Part shown: piece after piece, positions 36,887-49,811 of the stretch | Position numbering within the stretch: position 1 is the stretch's first letter | Layout: every line of letters starts with the position of its first letter | Assembly (NCBI GenBank): GCA_041674805.1 | Contig: JBAYVA010000001.1 | Location: forward strand, 125,136-189,135 | Length of the DNA stretch: 64,000 nt | Source of the DNA: Candidatus Magasanikiibacteriota bacterium | GTDB lineage: Bacteria; Patescibacteriota; Patescibacteriia; Magasanikbacterales; UBA922 | Reading direction: 5' to 3' | The notes under the pieces: model-generated | Databases searched by the model: none | What the model was told of the DNA's origin: nothing | Seen by the model: only the letters and a program-made list of their open reading frames with translations | Translations under genes and position numbers: made by a program

Positions 36887-39379
36887 ATGAACAAATACAA
36901 TCCTCAAGATATAGAGAAAAAATGGCAAAAATATTGGGAAGATAATAAATCTTTTTGTGCTCAAGATTCTTCTGACAAGCCAAAATTTTATCCTTTGATA
37001 GAATTTCCTTATCCATCTGGAGCAGGTTTGCACGTCGGTCATCCTCGTCCTTACACTGGTATGGATATTGTTGCTCGCAAAAAGAGAATGGAAGGATTCA
37101 ATGTCCTTTATCCAATTGGTTTCGATGCTTTTGGTTTGCCAACTGAAAATTATGCGATCAAGACTGGTCGTCCACCGGCTGATGTGACAGCTGAAAATAT
37201 TGCTAATTTTACTAGACAGATAAAAAGTCTTGGCATTAGTTTTGATTGGTCTCGTGTGGTAGATACTACTGATCCAAAATATTACAAATGGACACAATGG
37301 ATTTTTTTACAACTTTTCAAACACGGTCTTGCTTACAAGAAAAATATGCCAATCAATTGGTGTACTTCTTGCAAGATTGGTCTTGCTAATGAAGAAGTCG
37401 TCGATGGTAAATGTGAACGTTGTGGTGGAGAAGTAGAAAAAAGAGACAAATATCAATGGATGCTTGCTATTACCAAATACGCTGACAAACTTTTGTCTGG
37501 TCTTGAAGATGTAGATTATATTGAGCGTGCCAAAGTCCAACAACAAAATTGGATTGGGAAGAGTGAAGGTGCTAGCGTATTTTTCAATATCAAAGACTGT
37601 GAAGAAAAAATAGAAGTATTTACTACCAGACCGGACACTTTGTTTGGTGCGACTTATATGGTCTTGTCACCAGAACATAATTTGGTAGAAAAGTTGAAAG
37701 ATAAAATTAGTAATTTTGCAGATGTAGAAGATTATATAAATAAAGCCAAATTAAAATCAGACTTAGAACGTACCGAATTACAAAAAGAAAAAACAGGTGT
37801 GGAGTTGCAAGGTATCAAAGCAATCAATCCTGTCAACAACGAAGAGATTCCTGTTTTTGTTGCTGATTATGTTTTGGCTACTTACGGTACTGGAGCTATT
37901 ATGGCGGTACCTGCGCATGATGAAAGAGATTTTGAGTTTGCAAAGAAATATGATATAGCTATAAAAAAAGTTGTTTTGCCACCAGCTATTTATACATCAT
38001 ATAGAAATGCTGAAGATGTTGCTGCTGGAGCATCTAGTAGTATTAGAGTAGAATCTGAATGTTTTCCTGGTGAAGGAATTTCTGTTAACTCTGATTTCTT
38101 AAATGGATTGAAGACAGAAGAAGCCAAAGAAAAAATGATTACTTGGCTTGAAGAAAAAAATATTGGAAAAAAACAAATCAATTTCAAACTTCGTGATTGG
38201 GTTTTTTCACGTCAAAGATATTGGGGTGAACCTATTCCACTTGTTTATTGTGAAAAATGTGCGAGTGAAAATAAAGGTGGAAATGAACAAAATCCAGGTT
38301 GGTTTGCTATTGCCGAAAGTGAGTTGCCACTAGAATTGTCACAAGTTGAAAAATATGAACCGACAGACACAGGTGAATCTCCATTGTCACAAATTCCTGA
38401 ATGGGTGAAGACGACTTGTCCAAATTGTGGCGGAGAAGCAAATAGAGAAACCGATACTATGCCAAATTGGGCAGGAAGCTCTTGGTATTTCTTGCGTTAT
38501 ATTGATCCAAACAATGATACAGAATTTGCTAGTCAAGAAAAATTGAAATATTGGATGTCAGTTGATTGGTACAATGGCGGTATGGAACATACTGTTTTAC
38601 ATTTGCTTTATTCTCGTTTTTGGAATGAATTTTTGTATGATATTGGATTAGTGCCAACGAGTGAACCTTACAAAAAGCGTACTTCACATGGTATGATTTT
38701 GGCCAAAGGTGGTGAAAAGATGAGTAAATCCAAAGGCAATGTCGTCAATCCTGATGATGTGGTAGCTGAATTTGGGGCTGATACACTTCGTACTTATATT
38801 ATGTTTATGGGTCCATTTGATCAAGCGGTTGAATGGGATACCAATGGTCTTGTTGGTGTCAAAAGATTTCTTGATAGAGTTTGGAATTTGCAAGAAAAAA
38901 TAGGGGATAATACAAGTGATGATGTCACTCGTCTGCTTCATGTTGTAATCAAGAAAGTTACTGATGATATAGATAACATGAGATTTAATACAGCTGTAGC
39001 CAAGCTTATGGAGCTTAGTAATGAAGTTTCAAAAGCACCTTTTATTACCAAAGAAGACTATTTGCAAATTATCAAATTACTTTCACCATTTGCACCACAC
39101 ATGGCTGAGGAACTTTGGGCGATGTATGGAAATAGTCAAAGTATCTCCACACAAAAATGGCCAGAGTATGATGAATCAAAAACGAAAGAAGATGTGATTA
39201 CAATTGTCGTCCAAGTTAATGGCAAAGTACGTGATGAATTACAAGTTGGTGCAGAACTTTCTGAAGAAGATATCAAGTCTAAAGCGTTAGCACTTGAAAA
39301 TGTACAAAAATGGTTGGAAGGCAAAGATCCTAAAAAAGTTATTTATGTGAAAGGGAGACTTGTGAGTATTGTCGCTTAA
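36887..39379 (+). CDS. leuS: leucine--tRNA ligase
   Basis: HVGH (HIGH) and KMSKS motifs; editing domain; 830 aa. Confidence 0.95.
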
Positions 39380-39400
39380 AAAATTATTTTATATAGCATA

Positions 39401-39428
39401 AAACATCCTAAAAAAGGATGTTTTTTTG
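39401..39428 (+). terminator. terminator after leuS
   Basis: AAACATCCT-aaaaa-AGGATGTTTTTTT. Confidence 0.7.
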
Positions 39429-39498
39429 CACAGTTTTTTTTACAAATCTTAAATTTTTTTTTAATGTCTTTTTGTCTCTTCTTTATAGGGGGTGGAAA

Positions 39499-40311
39499 AT
39501 GTTGGACCTGAAAAGGTATACGACAATCCGCCTTCTGGGAGAAGGTGGATTTGCTCGTGTTCACCTCGTCGTGGACGAGGTGACAGGTGAGGAGTACGCT
39601 CTCAAAGAGCTTATTCCTCAAGAAGATGAAGTGAGTCATCTGCAAAATCTGGAAAAGTTACTCATGGAGTTTACTCTCCTGGTAGCTTTGCCACAACACT
39701 CGAACGTGGTTCGGGTGTTTGAAACCGATTTCAAAAATGGATATTTGATGGAGGCGTTTGGCGCTTCTCTCACTAAAAATATCCATTTGGTTGGAAAATT
39801 CCGTCATCTGATTCAGATTATGATGGGAATTTTTCAAGGTCTGAATCATTTTCACCAGAATGGGAAGCTTCATCTCGACGTGAAGCCTTCTAACGTCTTG
39901 ATCTCCCGAGATCAATACGGAAACATTCAGGTGAAACTCACCGATCCTCTTGTCCTTGGGAAAGACAAGAGTCTGTTCTTTGGGACTTCAGAATATGCTG
40001 CGCCAGAGTTCATGGCGTATGTAGGTGGAGATAGTCCCAAGGCAGATATGTTCGCCGCTGGTATCATTTTTTACCAACTTTTGTTTGGTAGTTTCAGATC
40101 GGACCCTTGGGGAGTTCGTCATGATAGTGATGCCAGTAAATTCTATGATTTTAGGTTTAATCGTAAACCTAGATCTTTGAAAATAAAGTGGCCAGAAGAA
40201 ATCCGCCAGCTGATTGCGGAACTTTTGTCCCACCGTCCAAAAAAACGGCCAGACGCCAGCTCGTGCATCGAGCGGCTGAAGCCTTTTTTGGAAGAAGAAG
40301 ACAAGGAGTGA
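39499..40311 (+). CDS. Hanks-type Ser/Thr protein kinase-like protein (atypical catalytic motifs) on a GC-rich islet
   Basis: G-loop LGEGGFARV, YALKEL, catalytic loop HLDVKPSNVL (non-RD), LTDP in place of DFG, AAPE. GC is about 48% against about 30% in the flanks. Start trimmed to the ATG at 39499 (MLDLKRYTT). Confidence 0.65.
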   Translation: MLDLKRYTTIRLLGEGGFARVHLVVDEVTGEEYALKELIPQEDEVSHLQNLEKLLMEFTLLVALPQHSNVVRVFETDFKNGYLMEAFGASLTKNIHLVGKFRHLIQIMMGIFQGLNHFHQNGKLHLDVKPSNVLISRDQYGNIQVKLTDPLVLGKDKSLFFGTSEYAAPEFMAYVGGDSPKADMFAAGIIFYQLLFGSFRSDPWGVRHDSDASKFYDFRFNRKPRSLKIKWPEEIRQLIAELLSHRPKKRPDASSCIERLKPFLEEEDKE

Positions 40312-40388
40312 GCCCGAGAGTCTTGAAAGACAGACAATCTCGGGCACACACAAAAGCAATTCATAATTATGAATTGCTTTTGTTTTTA
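40312..40388 (+). terminator. double hairpin terminator after the kinase gene
   Basis: GCCCGAGA...TCTCGGGC, then the perfect palindrome AAAAGCAATTCATAATTATGAATTGCTTTT and a T-run. Confidence 0.65.
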
Positions 40389-40434
40389 CTAACTAATTTA
40401 AGTTTAAGTGATGTTGTTTTTTTGTAAGTATGGA

Positions 40435-41304
40435 CTAATTTGTGATTTTTAGACTGTTAATTATATTTGTCCATTCTTCTATGATATTTGTTTCACTGTC
40501 CAAAGCGTGGTAACTAATAACGATATATTTGTCACCGACTTTTCTAGAAGAATATTTCATAGCACTATAAACATTGGAAGCTTTATATTGTTCTAGACTA
40601 TTCCAGACACTAATAACAGCACGATAAGATTGTGCACCTGGAGCTGTTTCAATAAAGTTGACTACAGAATTTGTCCAAGCAGCTGTGTCTACTGCGGTCT
40701 TGTAAGTAGTTGGATATTTTATTGTGAAATTGTGAGTAGCATTGCTATAAGTTTGCCAACTTTGAGTGCCATCATCCAAATTAGCAACAGTGAAGCTATC
40801 CATAATTGTACTGATTTCACGCCATCTAGCATCAAGAGATTCTATTTTGATATATTGAGATTGTCCACCATAATAATAAACTTGTCCATTGGTACCAAAA
40901 TATCTCATGTTTGGATGAGGATTTACTTCTGTTGGATAAACAGATATAGCAAACATGTCATCCCAATCTGATAATCCAATCCAAACAGTTTTTCCACCTA
41001 AATCGTTTTCAGTTGTTTTGGTAGTATAACCTGTCCAAGTAGCAGGAAGAGTTAGACTAAAATGAAATTCAGGATTAGTGTAAGTTATTGGATTTGTTAC
41101 AGTATTAGTGTTGGTATTTTGAGTAGTTGTCTCAGTATTATTTTGGTTACTAGTTTCGTTTGAAGTATCATCAGCTTGTTCAGTGGTAGCTGTTGTATTG
41201 TCAGTTGGAGTAGTGTTAGCAGGTGTATTGATGTTTACATTACAACCAGCTCCGAGCAACACGACTGTTGCCAAAACACTTCCCAAAGATATGATTTTTT
41301 TCAT
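40435..41304 (-). CDS. hypothetical lipoprotein with T/N-rich low-complexity linker
   Basis: Signal peptide with lipobox LLGAGC; an NTTxT-rich region, then a globular domain. Confidence 0.55.
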   Translation of the reverse strand: MKKIISLGSVLATVVLLGAGCNVNINTPANTTPTDNTTATTEQADDTSNETSNQNNTETTTQNTNTNTVTNPITYTNPEFHFSLTLPATWTGYTTKTTENDLGGKTVWIGLSDWDDMFAISVYPTEVNPHPNMRYFGTNGQVYYYGGQSQYIKIESLDARWREISTIMDSFTVANLDDGTQSWQTYSNATHNFTIKYPTTYKTAVDTAAWTNSVVNFIETAPGAQSYRAVISVWNSLEQYKASNVYSAMKYSSRKVGDKYIVISYHALDSETNIIEEWTNIINSLKITN

Positions 41305-41460
41305 AAATATTTATTATTATTTAAATGAATTAAGTACCTGCACTTTATCACAAAATAGTTGTAATATCAATAAGATTGTGTGATTAACTTTTTTGTATTT
41401 TTTATCACAATAATAAGCAATTTGATTACTTATTAATTTTGGATGCTTTATTTTTTTATC

Positions 41461-41766
41461 TTAATTTTTTTTATCATCATTTTCCTTTGGAATACCCCAT
41501 TGCCAACGTGGTTTTTCTCCTTTTTTGTAAGCAAGGAACATTAGCAAAAAAATAGCAACGGCTATTTTGGCAAAGAACCAATCAAGATCGTTTGTAGTGG
41601 CAGTTGGACTCAATGTTGTACCTGTCCAGATAATAAAGCCTACAAAAATTAGAGTAACTAACCAACCTTGCCATTTGACAGGTGTCCAACCCCAACCATA
41701 GAGTTTACGTTTGAACCATAAGCCTTTTGGATTGTCTTTGATGTAGTCTGTGTATTCTTTGAGCAT
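41461..41766 (-). CDS. hypothetical small membrane protein
   Basis: Two TM helices; Trp-rich N-terminus (KRKLYGWGWTPVKWQGW). Confidence 0.4.
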   Translation of the reverse strand: MLKEYTDYIKDNPKGLWFKRKLYGWGWTPVKWQGWLVTLIFVGFIIWTGTTLSPTATTNDLDWFFAKIAVAIFLLMFLAYKKGEKPRWQWGIPKENDDKKN

Positions 41767-41945
41767 AAGTTGTTTGTATTAAGAATTATTATTTTTTAAT
41801 TTTATAAGTTTATTTTATGATATAATTGTACTCCTTTGAAGATGATTGAGTCAAATTTATTGACAAATCAGCTAAAATATGAGATTATATGTCGGAATTA
41901 CGAACCTTTTTTAGGCTCGTTATTTATTCTTAAATTATATATAAT

Positions 41946-43397
41946 ATGGCTGAAGAAGTAATTCTACGTTTTGACAATGTTTGTTTTGAATATGCAGAAA
42001 GAAAACCAGTCTTGGACGAGGTCAGTTTTTCTGTACGTAAAGGTGCAAAACTTACATTAATGGGCCAAAATGGTGCTGGCAAAAGTACACTTTTTAAACT
42101 TATCAAAGGTGAAAATAAACCAAACTCAGGTAATGTTTTTTTGACAAATGAAGCTAGTATTGGTACAGCTGAGCAGATGATTGCCAAGAGTGATTTGGCT
42201 TTGACTATTGAAGATTATTTTGGCAAAGCCTTTCATGAAGTTCCAGGTAATATCAAAAGTCAAATAAGTAAGGTAATGGACGCTGTTAATCTTACAGTAC
42301 CAACTGATCGCAAAGTAGGAGATTTGTCTGGTGGACAGCAAGCACGTATTTTACTTGCTTTTGCTCTTATCCAAAATCCAGATATTTTGCTTTTGGACGA
42401 ACCTACAAACAATTTGGATAAAGACGGAATTGATCATCTTATCCAATTTTTGGTGATGTATGACAAAACAGTGATAGTGATTTCTCATGACGCTGATTTC
42501 CTCAATTGTTTTACTGAAGGTGTTATTTATCTTGATGTCTTTACCAAAAAAGTTGAGACTTATGTTGGTGACTATTATTCAGTAGTTGATGAAATTCAAA
42601 ATAGAATTGATAGAGAAATAAAGAAAAATGCTCAACTAAAAAAACAAATTCAAGATAATAAAGACAAAGTAAATTTCTTTTCCAACAAAGGTGGTAAAAT
42701 GCGTAAATTGGCGAGTAAATTGCGTGAAGAAATAGACGAATTTGAAGAAAATAAAGTAGAAGTTCGTCGCGAAGATAAGACAATTAGAGAATTTGATATT
42801 CCTGCTCAAGGAATTATTGGTGATATAGTGACTATCAAATCTATCAAAGTTATCAAAAATCACGAGGCTATTATAAAAGAAGTTGATATTATTTTGCGTC
42901 AAAGAGATAGACTACTTATTGCTGGTCCAAATGGCGTTGGAAAAAGTACTTTACTTAGAACTTTGGTCAATGGTAGCAATGAAGGTGTCACTATTATGAA
43001 AAATACTCGTGTAGGTTATTATAGCCAAGATTTTGCTACGCTTGATTATGATCAAACAGTTTTTGATTCTTTGCAAAGTGTAGTACAAGAGGGGACTACT
43101 ACTGAAAATATGCGTGCTGTAGCGGCTGGATTTTTACTTTCTGGTGAAACTATGGGGCTCAAAATTTCACATTTGTCAGAAGGACAAAAAGGTCTTTTAT
43201 CTTTTGCTAGATTGGTTTTATTGCAACCTGGTTTACTTGTTTTGGACGAACCTACCAATCATATCAATTTCCGTCATATACCCGTTATAGCTGAGGCTAT
43301 AAATAATTATAGTGGTGCTATTATTTTGATTAGTCATATGCCAGATTTTGTGGAAAAAATAAAATTTGACCAAGAATTGGATTTGGGAAGATATTAA
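41946..43397 (+). CDS. ABC-F family ATPase (tandem ABC domains, no TMD)
   Basis: Two Walker A motifs (GQNGAGKST, GPNGVGKST) and two signature motifs (LSGGQQARI, LSEGQKGLL) with an inter-domain linker. Confidence 0.8.
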   Translation: MAEEVILRFDNVCFEYAERKPVLDEVSFSVRKGAKLTLMGQNGAGKSTLFKLIKGENKPNSGNVFLTNEASIGTAEQMIAKSDLALTIEDYFGKAFHEVPGNIKSQISKVMDAVNLTVPTDRKVGDLSGGQQARILLAFALIQNPDILLLDEPTNNLDKDGIDHLIQFLVMYDKTVIVISHDADFLNCFTEGVIYLDVFTKKVETYVGDYYSVVDEIQNRIDREIKKNAQLKKQIQDNKDKVNFFSNKGGKMRKLASKLREEIDEFEENKVEVRREDKTIREFDIPAQGIIGDIVTIKSIKVIKNHEAIIKEVDIILRQRDRLLIAGPNGVGKSTLLRTLVNGSNEGVTIMKNTRVGYYSQDFATLDYDQTVFDSLQSVVQEGTTTENMRAVAAGFLLSGETMGLKISHLSEGQKGLLSFARLVLLQPGLLVLDEPTNHINFRHIPVIAEAINNYSGAIILISHMPDFVEKIKFDQELDLGRY

Positions 43398-43399
43398 AC

Positions 43400-43449
43400 A
43401 AGGCTTAAAAGGCCAGAAAAGCTTGAAAGGCTCAAAAGGCCTTTTTTGT
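43400..43449. repeat. A-tract repeat copy ending in an AAAAGGCCTTTT palindrome (acts as terminator)
   Basis: CAAGGCTTAAAAGGCCAGAAAAGCTTGAAAGGCTCAAAAGGCCTTTTTT. Confidence 0.6.
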
Positions 43450-43611
43450 TATGTTTTGCTTGTAGTTAGCAATTATATAATAACAAAAAGTAACTGGAAG
43501 TAATTAACAAAACATCATCCAGTTACCTTTAGTTACTTCAAGTTATTATGAGTGCATGTCTAATATTCGTGGTTAATATTTGTTTAGTATTTGAAATAAT
43601 ATTCGTGTTTC

Positions 43612-43640
43612 TTGACAAAGTGTTGAAATTCTGCTATACT
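43612..43640 (+). promoter_or_regulatory. sigma70-type promoter TTGACA-N17-TATACT
   Basis: TTGACA at 43612-43617, 17-nt spacer, TATACT at 43635-43640; about 38 nt upstream of the 43679 ATG. Confidence 0.55.
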
Positions 43641-43678
43641 AAGGGACAAATTACATTTAAGTAATTGGAATATTTTAT

Positions 43679-44377
43679 ATGGGAAGTTTTAATCGTGACG
43701 GCGATAGATCCGGTGGTGGTTTTGGCCGTGGTAGTAGTTTTGGTGGTAATAAATCATTTGGGGCCAAAAGATTTGGAGATAGAGGTGGTGACAGAGGTAG
43801 TAGAGGTGGAGATTTCCAAAAAACCATGCACAGAGCTGTCTGTGATGAATGTGGTGATAATTGTGAAGTACCTTTTAAACCTTCAGGAGACAAACCGGTT
43901 TTGTGCAGTCATTGTTTTGGCAAAAGTGGTGGTCCAGCACCTAGATTTGGTGGTGACAGAGGAGAAAGACGTGAAAGACCAAGTTTTGAAGATAGACAAA
44001 TGCATGATGCAATTTGTGATAAATGTGGTTCAGAATGTCAAGTACCTTTTAGACCTACACCTGGTAAAGAAATTTTTTGTAATAACTGTTTTGTAAGAAA
44101 AGACGATACAAGAGGAGGAAGTAGAGAAACAAAAGATTCTGGTGAACTTTTAGAAAAAATCAATCAATTGAATTATAAGGTTGATAAATTGATGAAACTT
44201 CTAGGTTATTCTGATGTAAAAGAAGAATCAAAAGAAAAAAAAGAAACAAAAGAAAAAACATCAAAAGAAACTAAAACAGAAGAAATAAAAGAAGAAAAAC
44301 CAAAAAAAGAAATAAAAGAAAAAACTACAAAAACAAAAGTAGCTAAGAAAAAAGAAACAACAAAAAAGAAAAAATAA
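43679..44377 (+). CDS. RGG-rich protein with two CxxCG-x3-C...C zinc-ribbon repeats and a Lys/Glu-rich tail
   Basis: RGG/GGF repeats; CDECGDNCEVPFKPSGDKPVLCSHCF and CDKCGSECQVPFRPTPGKEIFCNNCF; C-terminal KEKKETKEK... tail. Confidence 0.6.
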   Translation: MGSFNRDGDRSGGGFGRGSSFGGNKSFGAKRFGDRGGDRGSRGGDFQKTMHRAVCDECGDNCEVPFKPSGDKPVLCSHCFGKSGGPAPRFGGDRGERRERPSFEDRQMHDAICDKCGSECQVPFRPTPGKEIFCNNCFVRKDDTRGGSRETKDSGELLEKINQLNYKVDKLMKLLGYSDVKEESKEKKETKEKTSKETKTEEIKEEKPKKEIKEKTTKTKVAKKKETTKKKK

Positions 44378-44393
44378 TTGTTTTCTAAATTTT

Positions 44394-44428
44394 TAAAACG
44401 TACTTGTCTAGGTACGTTTTTTTTATCT
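44394..44428 (+). terminator. terminator
   Basis: AAAACGTAC-ttgtctag-GTACGTTTTTTTT. Confidence 0.65.
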
Positions 44429-44456
44429 TGACATAATAATAAATAAATACTATACT
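44428..44456 (+). promoter_or_regulatory. sigma70-type promoter TTGACA-N17-TATACT
   Basis: TTGACA at 44428-44433, 17-nt spacer, TATACT at 44451-44456. Confidence 0.5.
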
Positions 44457-44532
44457 AAATAAGTAGTGTATTAAATTTGTTTTGTTTATTGATGTAATGC
44501 AAAAATCTATTATTTATTCTTAACCACAAATC

Positions 44533-44694
44533 ATATGAGTTTATTTTCCGTAGATGAAACTGATGAAGAAAAGAAAGAAAAAGAAGAAGAAAAAGCAAAA
44601 AAAGATAAAAAATCTCTTTTTGATATAGGTGTAAAAGCCGGTAAAGAAGAGGCTCTAGAAGATGCTGAAGCAAAGAAAAATAAAAGTAGTTGGT
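44533..44694 (+). CDS. small Lys/Glu-rich protein (53 aa), unannotated in the ORF track
   Basis: ATG...TAA ORF (MSLFSVDETDEEKKEKEEEKAKKDKKSLFDIGVKAGKEEALEDAEAKKNKSSW), preceded by a consensus promoter and followed by a strong terminator. The overlapping minus-strand 85-aa ORF is low-complexity. Confidence 0.4.
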
Positions 44695-44700
44695 AAAACA

Positions 44701-44737
44701 AAAAAGACTCACTGGAAAATAGTGAGTCTTTTTTTAT
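44701..44737. terminator. bidirectional terminator
   Basis: AAAAAGACTCACT-ggaaaat-AGTGAGTCTTTTTTT. Confidence 0.7.
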
Positions 44738-45366
44738 TATAATTTTTTTATTTCACTTGCTGTCAAAATTTCTAATTCTTGCAATCTTTGCAACAGGCTT
44801 TCCATATTGGTATAGAGAATTGGTTCAAAACCTATTTCTTTGGCATTTTCCAAAACTCTGGGAGTATCGTCTATAAAAATCATTTCGGAAATATTTACTT
44901 CAAGTTTTTCTGCTAGCATTAGGAATGCTGCTGGGTCTGCTTTCATTACACCTACTTCGGCAGAAAATAAAGTGATATCAAACAAATCATCAACGCCAAG
45001 TTGTCTGGCTTCTTGTGCACCAGTTGCAGTGTGATTACTAAACAAACCAACTTTGTAACCTTTATTTTTTAATAATTTTATTAGAGGAAGTATCTCTTCA
45101 TTATATTTTCCTTTTGGAAAATTGTGAAGTAATTTCAAGAATTCATCTACTTTTGATTCTTTTCCTAAATCTGTAAATACTATAGTCCAAAATTCTTTTT
45201 CGTCTATATTGGTAGTATTTATAAGATGATTGTATTTGTAATAAGAATTACTAAATTCTTCATTGGAAATATTTAGAAGTTCTGAAATCATGGTGTGATA
45301 TCTAGAAGTAAAAAAGACTACTCCTACCCAATCAAAACCAATTGCTTTTATCTTTATCATAAACAT
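44737..45366 (-). CDS. HAD-superfamily hydrolase
   Basis: Motif I at the N-terminus (IKAIGFDWVGVVF, aspartate nucleophile); motif III FIDDTPRVLENAKEIG. Confidence 0.65.
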   Translation of the reverse strand: MFMIKIKAIGFDWVGVVFFTSRYHTMISELLNISNEEFSNSYYKYNHLINTTNIDEKEFWTIVFTDLGKESKVDEFLKLLHNFPKGKYNEEILPLIKLLKNKGYKVGLFSNHTATGAQEARQLGVDDLFDITLFSAEVGVMKADPAAFLMLAEKLEVNISEMIFIDDTPRVLENAKEIGFEPILYTNMESLLQRLQELEILTASEIKKL

Positions 45367-45800
45367 GTTGTTCTAGTGTGATCTACTTTTCCTCTATTTA
45401 CTATTCCTATTGCTTGATCAAATTTTTCATATCTAAGTCTTATTTTTTCCAGTTCGTCATCAGAAATATTAGTTTCATTTTTAATTGTTTGTATTTTGGT
45501 ATACATAGTTGATAGATCTGCTTTGGCAGGACTTCTTTTATTACGTTGTGGTGAGTTTTCTGGTCCTAATTCTTCAATTGCCATTAATTTTTGAATATTA
45601 TGATTTTGTTCAAATTCATCAAACATCCTTTCTAGTTCAGCAATATCTTCTCTACATTCTCTTTTTGTTTCAGGTATTACAGGTCCTTTATCTTCATGAA
45701 TTTCAGCAAGTTCTGCATATGCTGCATACATATCAGCTTCAGCAGCTTCCTTTTGTGAATTTATTTCTTCGGGTGTTGGCCCTGGTTTATCTATTCCCAT
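45357..45800 (-). CDS. hypothetical acidic protein
   Basis: ORF; its stop overlaps the HAD start by 10 nt (ATGTTTATGA). Confidence 0.4.
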   Translation of the reverse strand: MGIDKPGPTPEEINSQKEAAEADMYAAYAELAEIHEDKGPVIPETKRECREDIAELERMFDEFEQNHNIQKLMAIEELGPENSPQRNKRSPAKADLSTMYTKIQTIKNETNISDDELEKIRLRYEKFDQAIGIVNRGKVDHTRTTCL

Positions 45801-45844
45801 ATTGTATTTTGGTTAATAATAATTTAGTTAATATAATATATTTT

Positions 45845-46093
45845 TTAATCAGTTTGCTCTTCCCTTGTGCTATCTAAATAATCAACTAAAAAATCAGAAA
45901 AAATCTTTTCTAAATCTTCTTGATTTAATTCAATTATACTTTTATTTTCTTTTACTAAATATTTTTCTAAATATGGTTCTACATCAATTTCTTCAAATTC
46001 TTCGCCAGCTTGTTCTATAGTTTGTAATATAAAAGAGATTGCTTTTTTTTTAGCTTCAATTTCTAATTCTCGCATTTGTTCTGGTGGAGTCAT
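45845..46093 (-). CDS. hypothetical acidic small protein
   Basis: ORF 16 nt downstream of the helicase stop. Confidence 0.4.
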   Translation of the reverse strand: MTPPEQMRELEIEAKKKAISFILQTIEQAGEEFEEIDVEPYLEKYLVKENKSIIELNQEDLEKIFSDFLVDYLDSTREEQTD

Positions 46094-46109
46094 AATTTTA
46101 ATTTAAAAT

Positions 46110-47411
46110 TTATTTATTTAAATCCATAAACTTCTTTACTCTTTCATCAATGAAAATGTACTTAGCAAGCAGGGGAGTCGTGAGAGACATACCTTCTAGT
46201 GTGCGACAGCGACTAAGGGCGACATAAGCTTGTCCGTGAGCAAAAGTACCTGAACCAAAATCTATATGTACTTTGTCAAAAGTTTTTCCTTGTGCTTTGT
46301 GAATAGTTACTGCCCAAGCAAGTTTTAGTGGCAGTTGGGTGAAACTACCAACAACTTCAGATTCTATTTTTTTGTTTTCTCTGCTGTAGATAAAACGGAT
46401 AGCTTCTCTTGTCTGGGATGTAATATCTTCGTAAGTATTATCATCAAAAAGTACTCTTACACTATCTTTTTCTGTTTTTATTATTTTTACAATATCACCA
46501 TTTACCCAACGACCAAGAGGATCATTGCTAAGTATCATGACTTGAGAACCTTCTTTCAAAATTAAGTTTAGTTCGGTAGGTAAATCTCTTTCTTTGAATT
46601 GTCCTTCAATTGTCCCATTGTACATTTTTGCTTTGGCTGGCAATTTGTCCATTTCTTTTTTGTTTATAGTATTAGCGACATAATTGGTTGGGACAATAGA
46701 TAGCACAAATTCATCTTCAGGTTTTTTGTATTGTGGTATAAATCTGCTATTTATTAATTCTATATCTTGTTGGTCAAAACTGCAAGTTCTAATTTTGTCT
46801 AGAGCCTTGATAAATTTATTTTGTTTTTTGCTGTCTTGTCTATATATTTGTGTTAATTCTACTTTGAAAAAATTGCCATCTGAAAAACATTTGGCATCAA
46901 AGAAATAAGGACTTTCATAATGTAACTTGAAAAAAATTTCTTCATCATCTACGACGATAGGTGGCAATTGGTACAAGTCACCAATAGCAAATATTTGCAC
47001 TCCGCCAAAAGGTTCATCTGGTCTGTTACCATTTAGACGCATAAATTTGTCTATGCAATCCAACAAGTCAGCACGAACCATAGAGATTTCATCGATGATA
47101 ATAATATCTATTTTTTTATAAATATTATTGTTGTCATCATACATTTTTTTTATGCTGTCTAATGTAGTTTGTGGGTGAAAGCGAAAAAAAGAGTGAATAG
47201 TTTGTCCTTGGACATTGAGAGCTGCTACGCCAGTGTATGCCAAAGTTACCACATTTTTTTTGGTGGTAGCGCGAAAGTATTTGAGGAAGTGGGATTTACC
47301 AGTGCCAGCTCGGCCTGTCATAAAGATATTTCTATCGCTATTTTCCAGCAAGTCTATTATAGCTTTTTTTTCTTTGTTTAGATCAAAGTCTGTTGGTGCT
47401 GTGACACTCAC
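46110..47411 (-). CDS. PIF1/RecD-like SF1 DNA helicase
   Basis: Walker A GRAGTGKSH; YTGVAALNV; IIIIDEISMV; GDLYQLPPI; C-terminal AVTIHKAQGKTFD. Confidence 0.7.
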   Translation of the reverse strand: MSVTAPTDFDLNKEKKAIIDLLENSDRNIFMTGRAGTGKSHFLKYFRATTKKNVVTLAYTGVAALNVQGQTIHSFFRFHPQTTLDSIKKMYDDNNNIYKKIDIIIIDEISMVRADLLDCIDKFMRLNGNRPDEPFGGVQIFAIGDLYQLPPIVVDDEEIFFKLHYESPYFFDAKCFSDGNFFKVELTQIYRQDSKKQNKFIKALDKIRTCSFDQQDIELINSRFIPQYKKPEDEFVLSIVPTNYVANTINKKEMDKLPAKAKMYNGTIEGQFKERDLPTELNLILKEGSQVMILSNDPLGRWVNGDIVKIIKTEKDSVRVLFDDNTYEDITSQTREAIRFIYSRENKKIESEVVGSFTQLPLKLAWAVTIHKAQGKTFDKVHIDFGSGTFAHGQAYVALSRCRTLEGMSLTTPLLAKYIFIDERVKKFMDLNK

Positions 47412-47550
47412 TTTTTTTTGGCTTTCTCTTTTTTTGCCAATACCTTTTTTGATAAAAAAAGTCTTGAAAGGAGTCGCTTCTTTTGGTTTTGTTTGTTTTG
47501 TTGTTCTTTTGATATGTTTTGGTTTAGATTTTAGGTTGCTTTATTATATC

Positions 47551-47580
47551 ATAAAACGTATCGGGAGGGGATACGTTTTG
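47551..47580 (-). terminator. terminator for the DGQHR gene (minus strand)
   Basis: ACGTATC-gggagggg-GATACGT with flanking A/T runs. Confidence 0.5.
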
Positions 47581-47594
47581 TGGAGTTATGAATT

Positions 47595-48902
47595 TTAATT
47601 GTTATTAATATTTTGTTTTTTAATATTTTCTAATTCATCATCATTTATTATAGTTGTACTATTATCAAATGTTAAAATGTGGTGATTTCTGTTATATTCA
47701 TCTGATTTTCCATGTTCTATATCCAATATAATTAAATTATTATGTTTTTTACCAATAACATCTTTTTTATAATCTATTATTTCTTTCATTTTTTTGTATA
47801 ATCTTGATTGTAATCCTTCTCCACCACTTCTACTGAAATCTCCTTCAATACCAAATAATTTTTTTGCTTCTGTTTTATTTATTAATGAAAATATTTTGTT
47901 AAAATATTCTTTTAAATATTGTATATTATTGTTATTAAGTTTTATCTCTTTTTCAAAATCATTAAATAATTTCAAAAAGGCTCCTACGCCAGTAGTTTTA
48001 AATAATATAGATTGCTCAAATATTGAGTAACTTCCATCTATTTTTGGTTTTGGATAATGTTCTGAAAATTTTTCTTTTATTATTTGGAAATAAATTGATA
48101 ATATATTATATATTATTATAGGATCTGTTTTTTTATTTTTATATTCATCATATAATATTGAAAAAGCTTTTTCTGGTTTAAATAATTCTTTTATCTTTTC
48201 TACTAAAAAAGCCTGAGAAATAGTGCCTGAGCCAGTTCCTAACATTTTTATTAGACCAAAAAAAGGGTCACTTTTTGAATAATTAAGCTTTTTAACTATA
48301 GAGTGAGAAAGAGTATATTCATTATATTCTCCTTCTTGAGAACCAAATAAATCATAATATAAAGATTTATTTACGGCTTTTTGTTCAAAGTTTACTGTAG
48401 CAAATATTTTTGATTGTTCCCAAATATCATAACCGACAAGCATTGTAATTGGCAATTCAATATCTAATTCATCAAAAGTTAACTTGTTTTCTTCATAAAA
48501 TTTTTTTATTCCTAACAATCTGTGTTGTCCGTCAATAATAAAAGCTTTGTATAGTTTTGTGTCAAATGTTAAATATTCTCCATCCCAAGTTATTTCACTT
48601 TCTGTGTTTTCATCCCTTTCATTAATGGATAATATTATAGCAGTTGGAAAAAGTACTATAGATTTTTTATCTTTTTTTATTATTCCTTCTTCATCTATTA
48701 AAGAATTTTTTATGTAGTTAGCTATTTTTTTTATTTTTTCTTGGTCACTTAGTCTTTGAAAAAATTTATTATCTGATCCATCATTTTCTATTTTCCTATA
48801 TGTAAATTCAGAAATTTTGTCTAATTCAGAAAAAGACATCTTTCCTACAAAAGAAGATTTTATTAGATCTTTATTTAATTGTGATAATTTTAGTTTCATC
48901 AT
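47595..48902 (-). CDS. DGQHR-domain protein (DndB-like, ParB/Srx-like superfamily)
   Basis: FPTAIILS, IIDGQHRLLGIKKF, VNFEQKAVNKSLYYDLFG; 435 aa. Confidence 0.65.
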   Translation of the reverse strand: MMKLKLSQLNKDLIKSSFVGKMSFSELDKISEFTYRKIENDGSDNKFFQRLSDQEKIKKIANYIKNSLIDEEGIIKKDKKSIVLFPTAIILSINERDENTESEITWDGEYLTFDTKLYKAFIIDGQHRLLGIKKFYEENKLTFDELDIELPITMLVGYDIWEQSKIFATVNFEQKAVNKSLYYDLFGSQEGEYNEYTLSHSIVKKLNYSKSDPFFGLIKMLGTGSGTISQAFLVEKIKELFKPEKAFSILYDEYKNKKTDPIIIYNILSIYFQIIKEKFSEHYPKPKIDGSYSIFEQSILFKTTGVGAFLKLFNDFEKEIKLNNNNIQYLKEYFNKIFSLINKTEAKKLFGIEGDFSRSGGEGLQSRLYKKMKEIIDYKKDVIGKKHNNLIILDIEHGKSDEYNRNHHILTFDNSTTIINDDELENIKKQNINNN

Positions 48903-48903
48903 A

Positions 48904-49557
48904 TTAAATATCTATTTCTTTTTGACTTGTTATTTCATTTTCATAGGAATCTTCCTCTTTTGTATTTTTTATAGTTGAGTTACTGGCTATTTCTTTTAGA
49001 ACATTATCTATATCTGTATTTGTTTCTTTTCTTAACTCTTTAAATTGTTCCGATATATCAGTACGTATTTGTTCCTTTATATTTATCATTTCTTCTTTTA
49101 CTTTTATTTCGGCTTCTTTTACTAAAAGTTCTTTTTGTTCCTTAAATGACGTATCTAATTCTTTCTTTTTTATTTCTAATTCTTCAGATAGTTCCTTTTT
49201 TTTATCTTTTAATCTTTTATCTTCCATTATTCCAAAAAATATTAAAATAGCTGAGATCAAAAAACCAAAACCAGTAATCCACCATTTTAATTGATTAATT
49301 GCTTTATCATAAGCTGCCTCTTTTTCATCGGCTACATTTTTTTTGAAATCTATAGAAGTTATCAAGTTTTCAATACTTTTGTATTCAATAGTTTTTGAAT
49401 CTAATTTTTGGTTTTGAAATTCTTGATCTAATATTATTTTATTTATAATTTTTTGGTCTACTGAATTAAAAGCAAACACTTGTTTTATAAAAAGAGTAGA
49501 AAATCCTGATATTATGAATATTATTAATATCATTATTTTTTGATTAAATTTGATCAC
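48904..49557 (-). CDS. membrane protein with C-terminal coiled coil, translationally coupled to the DGQHR gene
   Basis: Two TM segments, then a long KE-rich heptad region. Its stop lies 1 nt before the DGQHR ATG. Confidence 0.5.
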   Translation of the reverse strand: MIKFNQKIMILIIFIISGFSTLFIKQVFAFNSVDQKIINKIILDQEFQNQKLDSKTIEYKSIENLITSIDFKKNVADEKEAAYDKAINQLKWWITGFGFLISAILIFFGIMEDKRLKDKKKELSEELEIKKKELDTSFKEQKELLVKEAEIKVKEEMINIKEQIRTDISEQFKELRKETNTDIDNVLKEIASNSTIKNTKEEDSYENEITSQKEIDI

Positions 49558-49740
49558 AGTGTTTATTTTTTTAGTTTAAAATACATATTTATAATACCTC
49601 TCTACTCTAATTATCGCAAATATACAAAAAAGTAGCTTGTTTTAGCAAAAAAATAGCTATTTTTAAAAAAACTTAAAATAAAATTAAAAGTTATTCACAC
49701 CATAATAACAAAAACAGCTAAATTAGCTGTTTCTTCTTAG

Positions 49741-49811
49741 TTCGGGGATAGGGATTCGAACCCCAATAGTCAGGATCAAAACCTGAAGTCCTACCATTAG
49801 ACGATCCCCGA
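49741..49811 (-). tRNA. tRNA-Gln (anticodon TTG)
   Basis: Hand-folded cloverleaf: acceptor TCGGGGA/TCCCCGA, D-stem GTCT/GGAC, anticodon stem TCAGG/CCTGA with loop TTTTGAT, T-arm GGGG-TTCGAAT-CCC. Confidence 0.8.

What the first reader, a model, noticed from the sequence alone, without database searches (positions are those of the whole stretch)
39430..40392. Compositional islet (~48% GC in a ~30% GC genome) encoding an atypical Hanks-type Ser/Thr kinase
Seen in sequence: from about 39490 to 40360 the sequence becomes GC-rich (e.g. GGTGGATTTGCTCGTGTTCACCTCGTCGTGGACGAGGTGACAGGTGAGGAGTACGC). The change is sharply bounded by the leuS terminator upstream and a double-hairpin terminator downstream.

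The single gene has a kinase G-loop (LGEGGFARV), the VAIK-equivalent YALKEL and APE (AAPE). Its catalytic loop is HLDVKPSN (non-RD) and DFG is replaced by TDP, which suggests a non-canonical or pseudokinase-like enzyme.

Inference: recent horizontal acquisition, possibly from a host or neighbour with higher GC. Alternatively an assembly chimera.
Basis: partly seen in the sequence, partly recalled or inferred. Interest (0 to 1): 0.6.

Follow-up and report, generated by a model that had tools for sequence, protein, structure and literature searches.

The report
GC-rich mobile kinase cassette in Magasanikbacteria
A real, sharply bounded GC-rich single-gene insert in an AT-rich Candidatus Magasanikbacteria genome encodes a probably active minimal protein kinase from a very rare family whose members are all GC-richer than their host genomes, differ greatly even between close strains, and all carry the same structured element after the stop codon.

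Summary
The gene at 39499-40311 is 44.8% GC, not the ~48% stated, in a 32.1% GC window. Its synonymous-site GC is 0.44 against 0.18±0.06 for the other 59 genes. It is bounded by the leuS terminator and a double hairpin.

An assembly chimera is very unlikely. Two other assemblies carry the same gene, and six homologous loci show the same contrast.

The protein is a confident Hanks-type kinase fold. All catalytic residues are present. DFG is DPL (the Asp is kept) and HRD is HLD, so it is probably active rather than a pseudokinase.

About 15 billion proteins yielded only five other clusters (34-38% identity over the full alignment). The two named members are Ca. Magasanikbacteria. All five have H[LN]D and [IT]DP[LN].

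New findings:
- Every member is 8.5-12.7 GC points above its contig.
- Every member is followed by a conserved ~75-nt double hairpin.
- Strains with 72-99% identical flanking proteins carry kinases only 47% identical.
- Relatives sit beside tRNA-Lys, with duplicated tRNA ends.
- In the window the cassette lies at a synteny breakpoint and is missing from the sister genome.

Best reading: a mobile, exchangeable single-gene kinase cassette, possibly conflict-related. "One recent import from a GC-rich donor" is only partly right. Function and the cause of the GC offset are unresolved.

The parts
36887..39379 (+). leuS (830 aa). This is the left synteny block shared with the sister genome; homology ends at 39367.
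   Evidence: ORF. 92% aa and 91% nt identity to L002 (Patescibacteria STC_93) up to window 39367.
39401..39427 (+). leuS intrinsic terminator hairpin (AAAACATCC-TAAAAA-AGGATGTTTT plus T-run), the upstream edge of the islet. The stem AACATCC/GGATGTT occurs only once in the window. It recurs twice beside the kinase and tRNA-Lys in L096.
   Evidence: RNA fold -14.9 kcal/mol, z = -5.1. One match in 64 kb, none expected. Also at L096 10844-10866 and 11677-11699. Absent after leuS in the sister genome.
39439..39467 (+). Putative own promoter (TTTACA, 17-nt spacer, TAATGT), read by eye. Weak evidence.
   Evidence: Sequence. It is not listed by the consensus scan, because the -10 matches only 3 of 6. 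Relatives have TTGACA-N17-TAGTGT at the equivalent place.
39487..39495 (+). Ribosome-binding site AGGGGGTGG, ending 3 nt before the ATG.
   Evidence: Sequence. The family alignment supports the start at 39499.
39499..40311 (+). Kinase CDS, 270 aa, a minimal Hanks-type Ser/Thr kinase domain. HLD replaces HRD and DPL replaces DFG. GC is 44.8% and GC3s is 0.44.
   Evidence: Pfam PF00069 117.7 bits against a cut-off of 31.7. AF2 pLDDT 91.2, pTM 0.91. Foldseek TM 0.70-0.77 to CaMKII and PknB. Composition.
40312..40345 (+). Hairpin 1 of the conserved 3' element (GCCCGAGA...TCTCGGGC). It is GC-rich, starts directly after the stop codon and has no T-run.
   Evidence: 100% identical (34 of 34) to the hairpin after the L089 kinase, whose protein is 36% identical (BLASTP). 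A short-loop form, GCCCGAGGCAGGAAGACTCGGGC, follows the other four members. It is found only after family kinases among 341 loci.
40350..40388 (+). Hairpin 2 (15-17 bp) plus T-tract, the intrinsic terminator of the cassette.
   Evidence: Terminator scan. 96.6% of cells paired and two pairs with compensatory changes across six loci. The whole element folds at -36.7 kcal/mol, z = -8.7. A covariance model built without the window sequence scores it 59.9 bits, E = 2e-12; the next best hit in the window is 21.4 bits.
40435..41304 (-). Convergent lipoprotein gene (289 aa). It begins the right synteny block shared with the sister genome; nucleotide homology resumes at about 40584.
   Evidence: ORF. 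L352 5923-8721 matches window 43454-40584 at 82%. In the sister genome a different gene (VTT_dom) follows it.

Best explanation
The islet is a genuine, chromosomally integrated single-gene cassette of about 1 kb in a Candidatus Magasanikbacteria (Patescibacteria/CPR) genome.

Structure. It is a self-contained transcription unit. It has a probable own promoter, an RBS, a 270-aa ORF, and a conserved two-hairpin 3' element whose second hairpin is an intrinsic terminator.

Product. The protein is a bare Hanks-type kinase domain with no signal peptide, membrane segment or sensor domain. Every catalytic residue is kept, so it most likely phosphorylates Ser/Thr. HLD (non-RD), a short activation segment and DPL in place of DFG are fixed across its family. 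This suggests activity that does not depend on activation-loop phosphorylation (inferred).

Family behaviour. The gene belongs to a tiny family that behaves as an exchangeable accessory cassette.
- It sits in three different genomic contexts.
- In relatives it lies at a tRNA-Lys integration hot spot.
- Alleles are replaced between closely related strains. In the L084/L096 pair the crossovers fall in the conserved 5' ~110 nt and in the 3' element.
- In the window it lies exactly at a synteny breakpoint and is missing from the sister genome.

Composition. The GC-richness is shared by all members. It marks the cassette pool rather than one recent import from an identifiable donor.

Function (inferred only). 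It is probably a conflict-type function, either abortive-infection-like phage defence or an inter-bacterial or host-directed effector, rather than housekeeping signalling.

Shown: composition, fold, motifs, family rarity, the 3' element, mosaicism and the synteny break. Inferred: kinase activity, constitutive regulation, the mode of mobility and the biological role.
For: Composition and codon outlier.

Independent assemblies: L001 is identical over window 38603-40379, and NCBI MFA7244688.1 is 100% identical on a 474,546-bp contig.

Kinase fold and residues.

Family rarity. The exhaustive search gave P0029-P0032 at E = 1e-37 to 1e-43. Generic, mostly long kinases follow from 2.5e-33. P0099 (E = 2e-22) was assigned to the family by its motifs. 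All five have H[LN]D plus [IT]DP[LN]. The named members are Ca. Magasanikbacteria.

GC offset. The kinase is GC-richer than its neighbours in all six contexts: +8.5 to +12.7 points, with GC3 0.40-0.58 against roughly 0.2-0.3 in the AT-rich contigs.

Ancient divergence. Four-fold sites are saturated between members (identity 0.20-0.43).

Decoupled divergence. For L084 vs L096, flanking proteins are 72-99% identical and the kinases 47%. For L083 vs L096 the figures are 63-83% and 43%. DNA similarity between L084 and L096 survives only in the first 114 nt and the last 48 nt of the ORF plus the flanks. L084 vs L086 is 99.9% identical over the kinase half and 89% over the other half.

3' element. 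It is conserved in all members, structured, covarying and specific.

tRNA-Lys. It is adjacent in L096 and L089, and read by eye in L083, where the contig ends inside the gene. L089 has extra partial tRNA copies. In L096 a GC-rich 148-aa gene is flanked by a repeated ~35-nt hairpin segment.

Synteny break and absence from the sister genome.

Context. No PP2C or FHA partner appeared among the window genes scanned. The 483-aa ABC ATPase nearby is an ordinary ABC-F.
Against: - No recombinase, transposase, phage gene or flanking direct repeat lies next to the cassette in the window, so the way it moves is unknown.
- The family has only six clusters, so the evolutionary inferences rest on few sequences.
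- In one lineage (P0258) the gene is identical in at least 24 contigs from many samples. There it behaves as a stable resident gene.
- The defence-library matches (mad6 142.9 bits, PD-T4-6 90 bits) are generic kinase-domain matches. PD-T4-6 models also pick up what looks like the housekeeping PASTA kinase of streptococci (PMC11514479).
- No family member or 3' element was found in viral contigs.
- A conflict role therefore has only circumstantial support: hypervariability, accessory distribution and a hot-spot location.
- The sister MAG is fragmented, so absence from the whole genome is not proven.
Confidence: 0.6

Rival explanations
1. Simple recent horizontal transfer. The gene came recently and directly from a distantly related organism of higher GC content (a host or neighbour) and has not yet ameliorated.
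For: - GC3s z = 4.3 and codon log-likelihood z = -5.9.
- The gene is absent at both corresponding sites of the sister genome and lies at a synteny breakpoint.
- One family member (L082) sits in a 47.8% GC contig, where its composition deviates less (GC 53.8%, GC3 0.58 against 0.38-0.55 for most neighbours). GC-richer carriers therefore exist.
Against: - Nothing above ~40% identity exists in 1.84 billion cluster representatives of ~15 billion proteins.
- Five of six contexts are AT-rich contigs in which the gene is equally anomalous.
- The window's gene shares its 3' element, 34 of 34 nt in hairpin 1, with one of those AT-rich loci.
- The offset is nearly constant (+8.5 to +12.7 points) rather than spread across stages of amelioration.
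Confidence: 0.2
2. A native, vertically inherited regulatory kinase that evolves fast. Its GC-rich codon choice is held by selection, for example to keep translation low or conditional in an AT-rich genome, or by GC-biased conversion at a recombination hot spot.
For: - The locus is the same (p221/DUF2202 - kinase - tRNA-Lys) in L083, L084, L089 and L096.
- The gene is stable and clonal in at least 24 contigs of one population.
- The GC offset is constant despite saturated synonymous sites.
- The gene has a probable own promoter and a terminator.
Against: - Kinase divergence does not scale with genome divergence: 47% identity between near-identical backgrounds against 43% between distant ones.
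- There are breakpoints inside the ORF.
- The gene occupies three unrelated genomic contexts (window; L082; the tRNA-Lys loci).
- It is absent from the sister genome.
Confidence: 0.15
3. Assembly chimera. A fragment from a GC-richer organism was misjoined into the Magasanikbacteria contig.
For: Sharp compositional boundaries. No read-level data were available here. The right-hand junction (40384-40434) is not covered by the second assembly.
Against: - A Logan assembly reproduces leuS, the intergenic region, the kinase and the hairpins at 100% identity.
- An NCBI MAG has the identical protein on a 474.5-kb contig.
- Six homologous loci from JGI, ENA and Logan assemblies show the same GC-rich kinase embedded in AT-rich flanks with the same 3' element.
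Confidence: 0.02
4. Catalytically dead pseudokinase that acts as a scaffold or decoy, because the DFG and HRD motifs are degenerate.
For: DFG is replaced by DPL, so the regulatory-spine Phe and the flexible Gly are lost. HRD is replaced by HLD. The third glycine of the G-loop is Ala.
Against: The β3 Lys, αC Glu, catalytic Asp, Lys and Asn, the metal-binding Asp, APE and the subdomain XI Arg are all present and invariant across the family. The model is a complete, high-confidence kinase fold. Non-RD kinases are commonly active (general knowledge).
Confidence: 0.1

Closest known systems
Bacterial Hanks-type (eukaryote-like) Ser/Thr kinases, e.g. PknB/Stk1
   Same: Same fold and catalytic machinery. 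Pfam Pkinase scores 117.7 bits and Foldseek gives TM 0.76 to the PknB kinase domain.
   Different: No transmembrane segment or PASTA/sensor domain (270 aa in total). NF033483 scores 76 bits against a cut-off of 450. It is non-RD (HLD) with DPL in place of DFG. No adjacent PP2C phosphatase was found. It is accessory, hypervariable and compositionally foreign.
Single-gene anti-phage kinases (staphylococcal Stk2; PD-T4-6 of E. coli)
   Same: Kinase-centred, horizontally distributed accessory genes. PADLOC PD-T4-6 models match over the full length (90 bits, including a 292-aa model), and Stk2 matches partially (40.8 bits). Fast evolution and a variable-locus position fit a defence gene.
   Different: The matches are generic for Hanks kinases. 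The PD-T4-6-matching gene present in every S. thermophilus genome has a kinase domain followed by kinase-binding modules resembling PDB 3py9 (PMC11514479). No defence phenotype, trigger or neighbouring defence genes were shown. Nothing related was found on viral contigs.
MAD6 kinase of the methylation-associated defence system (MADS)
   Same: It is the best-scoring named profile for the kinase domain: PADLOC mad6 142.9 bits and NCBIfam NF047741 101 bits.
   Different: MAD6 profiles are 612-659 positions long, with extra regions that are absent here. The score is far below the NCBIfam cut-off of 460. No mad operon is present. The nearby 'mad3' hit is an ordinary ABC-F translation factor (NF000355, 325 bits).
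Prophage 'morons' and tRNA-linked genomic islets
   Same: A single gene with its own promoter and factor-independent terminator, with nucleotide composition unlike its neighbours. Relatives sit at a tRNA-Lys 3' end with duplicated tRNA fragments.
   Different: No prophage or integrase lies around it, and in the window it is not at a tRNA. It is GC-richer rather than AT-richer than the host. The conserved GC-rich hairpin directly after the stop codon has no counterpart that I know of.
Eukaryotic CAMK-group kinases (CDPK, CaMKII, MARK)
   Same: These are the top sequence hits among solved structures (E ~3e-19) and the top Foldseek hits.
   Different: Identity is only 21-28%, and PknB scores equally well by fold. 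Nothing indicates a eukaryotic origin.

Membership tests
Hanks-type / eukaryote-like protein kinase (Pfam PF00069) | Profile match above the curated cut-off, and a bilobal kinase fold | tested here: met
   117.7 bits against a cut-off of 31.7. AF2 pLDDT 91.2 and pTM 0.91. TM 0.70-0.77 to CaMKII and PknB.
Hanks-type / eukaryote-like protein kinase (Pfam PF00069) | ATP-binding residues: Gly-rich loop, β3 Lys, αC Glu | tested here: met
   G14-E-G16-G17-F-A19 (the third Gly is Ala), K36 and E57. They are invariant or nearly invariant in the family and in canonical kinases.
Hanks-type / eukaryote-like protein kinase (Pfam PF00069) | Catalytic loop HRDxKxxN | tested here: met
   H125-L-D127-V-K129-P-S-N132. 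The catalytic Asp, Lys and Asn are present, and Arg is replaced by Leu, making it non-RD.
Hanks-type / eukaryote-like protein kinase (Pfam PF00069) | DFG metal-binding motif | tested here: inconclusive
   D149 aligns with the DFG Asp (VKLTDPL against VKLTDFG). Phe-Gly is replaced by Pro-Leu in the window, and by Pro-Leu or Pro-Asn in all family members. The effect on activity was not tested.
Hanks-type / eukaryote-like protein kinase (Pfam PF00069) | Phosphotransfer activity | not testable with these tools
   This needs an in vitro kinase assay.
PASTA kinases (PknB/Stk1 family, NF033483) | Kinase domain plus a transmembrane helix plus extracellular PASTA repeats | tested here: not met
   The protein is 270 aa and the kinase domain spans residues 5-264. 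The score is 76.3 bits against a cut-off of 450.
MADS defence system, MAD6 kinase (NF047741 / PDLC04138) | Full-length ~610-660-aa protein above the cut-off, within a mad1-8 operon that includes a methyltransferase | tested here: not met
   101 bits against a cut-off of 460, with only the kinase part matched. Of ten downstream ORFs scanned (40435-49533), only the ABC ATPase hit mad models (mad3, mad8), and it is an ABC-F.
PD-T4-6 / Stk2 single-gene anti-phage kinases | Specific profile membership and protection against phage | tested here: inconclusive
   PD-T4-6 models score 30-90 bits and Stk2 scores 40.8 bits. These models also hit what appear to be housekeeping kinases (PMC11514479). The phenotype is not testable here.
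Integron gene cassette | attC site (imperfect palindrome with RYYYAAC/GTTRRRY cores and extrahelical bases) 3' of a promoterless ORF, with intI nearby | tested here: not met
   Hairpin 2 is a perfect 17+17 palindrome with a T-run, i.e. a terminator. No core sites were seen by eye, no integrase ORF lies within ±5 kb, and the gene has a plausible promoter.
Prophage moron | An autonomous promoter-gene-terminator unit of deviant composition, inside a prophage | tested here: not met
   The architecture and the deviant composition are met. No phage genes surround it: the PHROGs scan of the neighbours was empty, and the Pfam neighbours are leuS, thioredoxin and ABC-F.
tRNA-linked genomic islet | Insertion at a tRNA 3' end with duplication of the tRNA end | tested here: not met
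   This is met in relatives: L096 and L089, L083 by eye, and extra partial tRNA-Lys copies in L089. It is not met in the window, where the nearest tRNAs are at 49740 and 60448.
Known RNA families (Rfam 15) for the 3' element | Match at the gathering score | tested here: not met
   The best match is PyrR at 27.4 bits against a gathering score of 54, E = 0.23.

The most novel reading that the evidence does not exclude
The kinase ORF plus its conserved stop-codon-abutting hairpin may form a previously undescribed exchangeable single-gene conflict cassette of CPR bacteria. Anciently diverged kinase alleles would be swapped between strains by recombination anchored on the conserved 5' end and the 3' element. 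The constant GC excess would be actively maintained, for example rare-codon throttling of a potentially toxic kinase or biased conversion at the hot spot. The GC-rich hairpin would be a functional RNA or DNA site for regulation or mobility rather than a mere terminator accessory.
Probability: 0.25. Interest if true: 0.75.

Novelty: new variant of a known kind. Interest (0 to 1): 0.55.

Why it matters
CPR/Patescibacteria have tiny genomes, few recognisable defence or signalling systems, and an epibiotic lifestyle whose molecular tools are mostly unknown.

This cassette is a minimal kinase that is kept as an accessory gene. It is exchanged between strains at recombination or integration hot spots. 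It always travels with the same structured 3' element and always has foreign-looking composition. That makes it a concrete, testable candidate for a conflict function (phage defence or an effector) in these organisms.

The DFG-to-DP[LN] substitution, fixed in a family that keeps every catalytic residue, is also a natural experiment on what the DFG motif is needed for.

The case carries a methodological warning as well. A GC or codon-usage islet is usually read as 'recent HGT, not yet ameliorated'. Here the same offset is seen in all anciently diverged relatives, so that standard inference does not hold as stated.

Tried and rejected
1. Chimera: rejected on two further assemblies and six homologous loci.
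2. Donor search. A word-indexed search gave nothing above 33% identity. The exhaustive search gave only five related clusters at 37-40% identity. The profile search added none. The metagenome scan gave one more locus, L096, of the P0032/P0258 lineage. The viral scan gave only 20-32% generic kinases.
3. MADS system: rejected. The 'mad3' neighbour is an ABC-F.
4. PADLOC PD-T4-6 and Stk2 matches were judged non-specific.
5. Rfam: no family for the 3' element.
6. DNA pattern scans of viral contigs. A loose pattern gave only chance hits, none with the full element. Exact hairpin-1 patterns gave zero hits.
7. Integron attC, DGR and overlapping antisense gene. There are no attC features and no recombinase. 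No reverse transcriptase appeared among the ORFs annotated. There is no consistently conserved antisense ORF.
8. A functional link to the ECF sigma/anti-sigma genes upstream of the relatives' kinases was considered. It is not supported for the window, which has no such genes, and a terminator and promoter separate them in the relatives.
9. Residual synteny with ABC-F. Both the window and L082 have one within 4 kb (58% identical). This was judged uninformative.
10. Population polymorphism in the P0258 lineage: all contigs are at least 99.98% identical, so there is no signal.
11. Taxonomic naming of L082-L089 by cluster look-up gave no names.
12. The literature search found no paper on Magasanikbacteria kinases. 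The MADS search was swamped by plant MADS-box papers.
Full report
**1. The observation**

The window is 32.1% GC. The ORF is in fact 39499-40311: an ATG preceded by AGGGGGTGG, giving 270 aa. It is 44.8% GC, and 39490-40360 is 45.1%. The edges are sharp. In 100-nt windows GC goes from 0.25 to 0.54 at the start, and from 0.53 through 0.37 to 0.25 at the end.

The excess lies at synonymous positions. GC1 and GC2 are ordinary (0.53 and 0.32). GC3s is 0.444 against 0.176±0.062 (maximum 0.309) for the other 59 ORFs, z = 4.3. The likelihood of its codon choices under the window's usage is the worst of 60 genes, z = -5.9. CTG makes up 10 of 34 Leu codons against 2% in the background.

The leuS terminator (39401-39427) and the downstream pair of hairpins (40312-40345, and 40350-40383 plus a T-run) are as described. 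All quoted motifs are present.

**2. Not an assembly artefact**

- The exact protein occurs on the 743,922-bp contig. It also occurs on an independent Logan contig from SRR6484325 that equals window 38603-40379 at 100% identity. That contig spans leuS, the spacer, the kinase and both hairpins, and ends inside the perfect palindrome.
- An NCBI MAG protein (MFA7244688.1, Candidatus Magasanikbacteria) is 100% identical and sits on a 474,546-bp contig.
- The same 'GC-rich kinase in AT-rich flanks' arrangement recurs in six homologous loci from JGI, ENA and Logan assemblies (section 4).
- Only read mapping could close the case for the right-hand junction (40384-40434).

**3. The protein**

Pfam Pkinase matches residues 7-258 (117.7 bits, E = 7.7e-34). 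AlphaFold2 with the family alignment gives a complete kinase fold (pLDDT 91.2, pTM 0.91). The fold resembles CaMKII, DCLK1, Nek7 and PknB about equally (TM 0.70-0.77). The best sequence matches among solved structures are CDPK, PLK3 and MARK at E ~1e-19.

Alignment with canonical bacterial kinases shows 'VKLTDPL' against 'VKLTDFG'. The DFG equivalent is therefore D149-P150-L151, not 'TDP', and the metal-binding Asp is kept.

These residues are present and conserved: G14/G16/G17, K36, E57, H125, D127, K129, N132, D149, T163, P169-E170, D183 and R250. The enzyme is non-RD (HLD) and has a short, 22-residue activation segment. There is no signal peptide, membrane segment or extra domain; the kinase fold covers the whole chain.

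I conclude that it is probably an active Ser/Thr kinase that does not need activation-loop phosphorylation. This is an inference from sequence. A pseudokinase is unlikely but not excluded.

**4. A tiny family with three shared oddities**

*Size of the family.* A word-indexed search of 5.8 billion cluster representatives found nothing above 33% identity. The exhaustive HMMER search of 1.84 billion representatives, standing for ~15 billion proteins, found four stand-alone proteins of 253-285 aa (P0029-P0032) at E = 1e-37 to 1e-43. Generic, mostly long kinases follow from E = 2.5e-33. P0099 (260 aa, E = 2e-22) joins the family through its motifs. All five have H[LN]D and [IT]DP[LN]. The named members are Ca. 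Magasanikbacteria. One more locus of the P0032/P0258 lineage came from the metagenome scan (L096). None came from viral contigs.

*(a) GC offset.* In every context the kinase is GC-richer than its contig.

| Locus | Kinase GC (%) | Contig or window GC (%) |
|---|---|---|
| window | 44.8 | 32.1 |
| L096 | 45.9 | 33.8 |
| L089 | 46.3 | 35.1 |
| L083 | 44.8 | 35.1 |
| L084 | 43.8 | 34.3 |
| L082 | 53.8 | 47.8 |

GC3 is 0.40-0.58, against roughly 0.2-0.3 for neighbours in the AT-rich contigs. Yet four-fold sites at identical residues are only 0.20-0.43 identical between members, which means saturated. The members therefore separated long ago but all keep the offset.

*(b) A conserved 3' element.* Directly after the stop codon (0-3 nt) every member has a GC-rich hairpin. 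A 15-17-bp A/T-rich hairpin with a T-run follows.
- The first hairpin reads GCCCGAG-GCAGGAAGA-CTCGGGC in four loci, one with a C-to-T change in the 5' arm and one in the 3' arm. The window and L089 carry a long-loop form that is identical in both (34 of 34 nt), although their proteins are 36% identical.
- The second hairpin keeps 96.6% pairing, with two pairs changed on both sides.
- The whole element folds with z = -7.5 to -8.7.
- It matches no Rfam family.
- A covariance model built from the four short-loop copies alone finds the window's copy at 59.9 bits (E = 2e-12). Nothing else in the window exceeds 21.4 bits, and nothing in the sister-genome contigs exceeds 21.5 bits.
- Among 341 loci held, the element occurs only after family kinases.
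- The second hairpin resembles other terminators of these genomes (AAAACAACTC...GAGTTGTTTT). The first hairpin is the specific signature.

*(c) Hypervariability and mosaicism.* L084 and L096 have flanking proteins 72-99% identical (DsbA 98.9%, sigma 93%, p267 87%, p221 72%), but their kinases, at the same position, are 47% identical. The more distant pair L083/L096 has flanks 63-83% identical and kinases 43% identical. Kinase divergence is thus decoupled from genome divergence.

At the DNA level, L084 and L096 remain ~80-85% identical upstream, through the first 114 nt of the ORF, again over the last 48 nt, and through the 3' element. The middle is unalignable. This is the pattern expected from allele replacement with crossovers in the conserved ends. 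L084 and L086 are 99.9% identical over the kinase-containing half but 89% over the other half.

**5. Genomic contexts**

In L083, L084, L089 and L096 the kinase follows ECF sigma - p267 - p221 (- DUF2202). In L096 and L089 it abuts the 3' end of tRNA-Lys(UUU). The same is read by eye in L083, where the contig ends inside the gene. The L084 contig shows no tRNA. L089 carries two extra partial tRNA-Lys copies. In L096 a 148-aa gene of 52.6% GC lies between two copies of a ~35-nt hairpin segment next to the tRNA. These are the marks of an integration hot spot. L082 is a third context (GIY-YIG / kinase / uvrA).

In the window the cassette lies between leuS and a convergent lipoprotein gene. The sister genome is GCA_028687045.1 (STC_93), with LeuS 92% identical. 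It shares the left block up to the leuS stop (window 39367) and the right block (PIF1 ... ABC-F ... lipoprotein) down to about window 40584. In the sister these blocks are on different contigs and are followed by other genes: PDDEXK_3 on one, VTT_dom and GreA on the other. No family kinase from that MAG appeared in any search.

The cassette therefore sits exactly at a synteny breakpoint and is lineage-specific. This is gain in the window's lineage or loss in the sister; MAG incompleteness is a caveat. No recombinase, transposase, phage gene or flanking repeat lies next to it.

**6. What it most likely is**

It is a self-contained, exchangeable single-gene cassette encoding a minimal, probably constitutively competent Hanks kinase, drawn from a pool of anciently diverged alleles.

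Whether the pool resides in an unsampled GC-richer reservoir is unresolved. L082, at 48% GC, hints that GC-richer carriers exist. The alternative is that the offset is maintained in place, by selection on codon choice or by biased conversion at a recombination hot spot. The near-constant offset in six contexts argues against six chance snapshots of amelioration.

Function is inferred only. Accessory distribution, hot-spot location, allele turnover and the absence of any partner domain fit a conflict role better than housekeeping signalling. So does the lack of a PP2C or FHA neighbour among the genes scanned. The conflict role could be Stk2-like abortive-infection defence or a host- or competitor-directed effector.

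The defence-library matches (mad6 142.9 bits, PD-T4-6 90 bits, Stk2 40.8 bits) are not specific. The mad6 score is far below NCBI's cut-off (101 against 460). The neighbouring 'mad3' hit is an ABC-F. PD-T4-6 models also pick up what looks like the housekeeping PASTA kinase of streptococci (PMC11514479).

**7. Novelty and verdict**

The fold and chemistry are known. Three things are new to my knowledge, and a literature search found nothing on Magasanikbacteria kinases:
- a family-wide DP[LN]/H[LN]D variant with all catalytic residues intact;
- a conserved hairpin abutting the stop codon;
- a family-wide GC offset combined with cassette-like allele exchange in CPR genomes.

I rate it a new variant of a known kind, of moderate-to-good interest. 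It is wrong on chimera and on pseudokinase, and incomplete on the origin of the GC signal.

Noticed in passing
window 47595-49533 (minus strand), next to tRNA-Gln at 49740-49811: An AT-rich pair of genes (22.6% and 23.0% GC against 32% for the window). The first is a DGQHR/DndB-like protein (TIGR03187 122 bits; DpdB 63 bits). The second has no family match. This may be a second, AT-rich, defence-type islet beside a tRNA, with a PIF1/RecD-like helicase (46110-47321) just upstream.
   Followed up: partly
L096 10843-11710 (same in L342-L351): A 148-aa acidic ORF (11065-11511, minus strand) has 52.6% GC and GC3 0.64 in a 34% GC contig. It lies between two copies of a ~35-nt segment holding the AACATCC...GGATGTT hairpin (10844-10866 and 11677-11699), beside tRNA-Lys. 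It has no Pfam or PHROG match. Its own 3' end carries a GC-hairpin plus an AACTCA/TGGGTT terminator that resembles the kinase's 3' element (covariance model, 34.9 bits).
   Followed up: partly
L089 2640-2980: Three successive copies of the tRNA-Lys 3' end (GTGATCCGGGTGGGG...), each preceded by a terminator-like hairpin. One is a pseudo-tRNA with a replaced anticodon arm. This is the footprint of repeated site-specific integrations right after the kinase cassette.
   Followed up: partly
window 39402-39422; L096 10844-10866 and 11677-11699: The stem of the leuS terminator in the window (AACATCC/GGATGTT) is unique in the 64 kb. The same stem occurs in the two hairpins flanking the insertion next to the kinase in L096. 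The sister genome has no such hairpin after leuS. This may be coincidence, or part of what moved with the cassette.
   Followed up: partly
L082 150-1028: A 292-aa ORF with 62.6% GC (GC3 0.81) sits in a 47.8% GC contig that also carries a family kinase. It has no Pfam match. It is another strongly GC-shifted single gene.
   Followed up: no
L084 vs L086 (loci of P0030): Two assemblies from different samples are 99.93% identical over the p221-DUF2202-kinase half but only 89% identical over the DsbA-sigma-p267 half. This indicates a recent recombination tract that includes the kinase.
   Followed up: partly
L083-L088 and L001 contig ends: Seven assemblies break 67-214 nt after the kinase stop codon. 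L001 breaks inside the perfect palindrome and L083 inside tRNA-Lys. This suggests repeat- or strain-variation-induced fragmentation downstream of the cassette.
   Followed up: no
L002 3957-4349 (sister genome, directly after leuS): Where the window has the kinase, the sister genome has a PD-(D/E)XK nuclease family gene (PF13366, 146.8 bits) of 27.7% GC. The position downstream of leuS is therefore variable in both genomes.
   Followed up: partly
window 43679-44377: A 232-aa protein with two treble-clef zinc fingers (PF23477), RGG/GGDRG-rich spacers and a lysine/glutamate-rich tail. It is conserved next to ABC-F in the sister genome.
   Followed up: no
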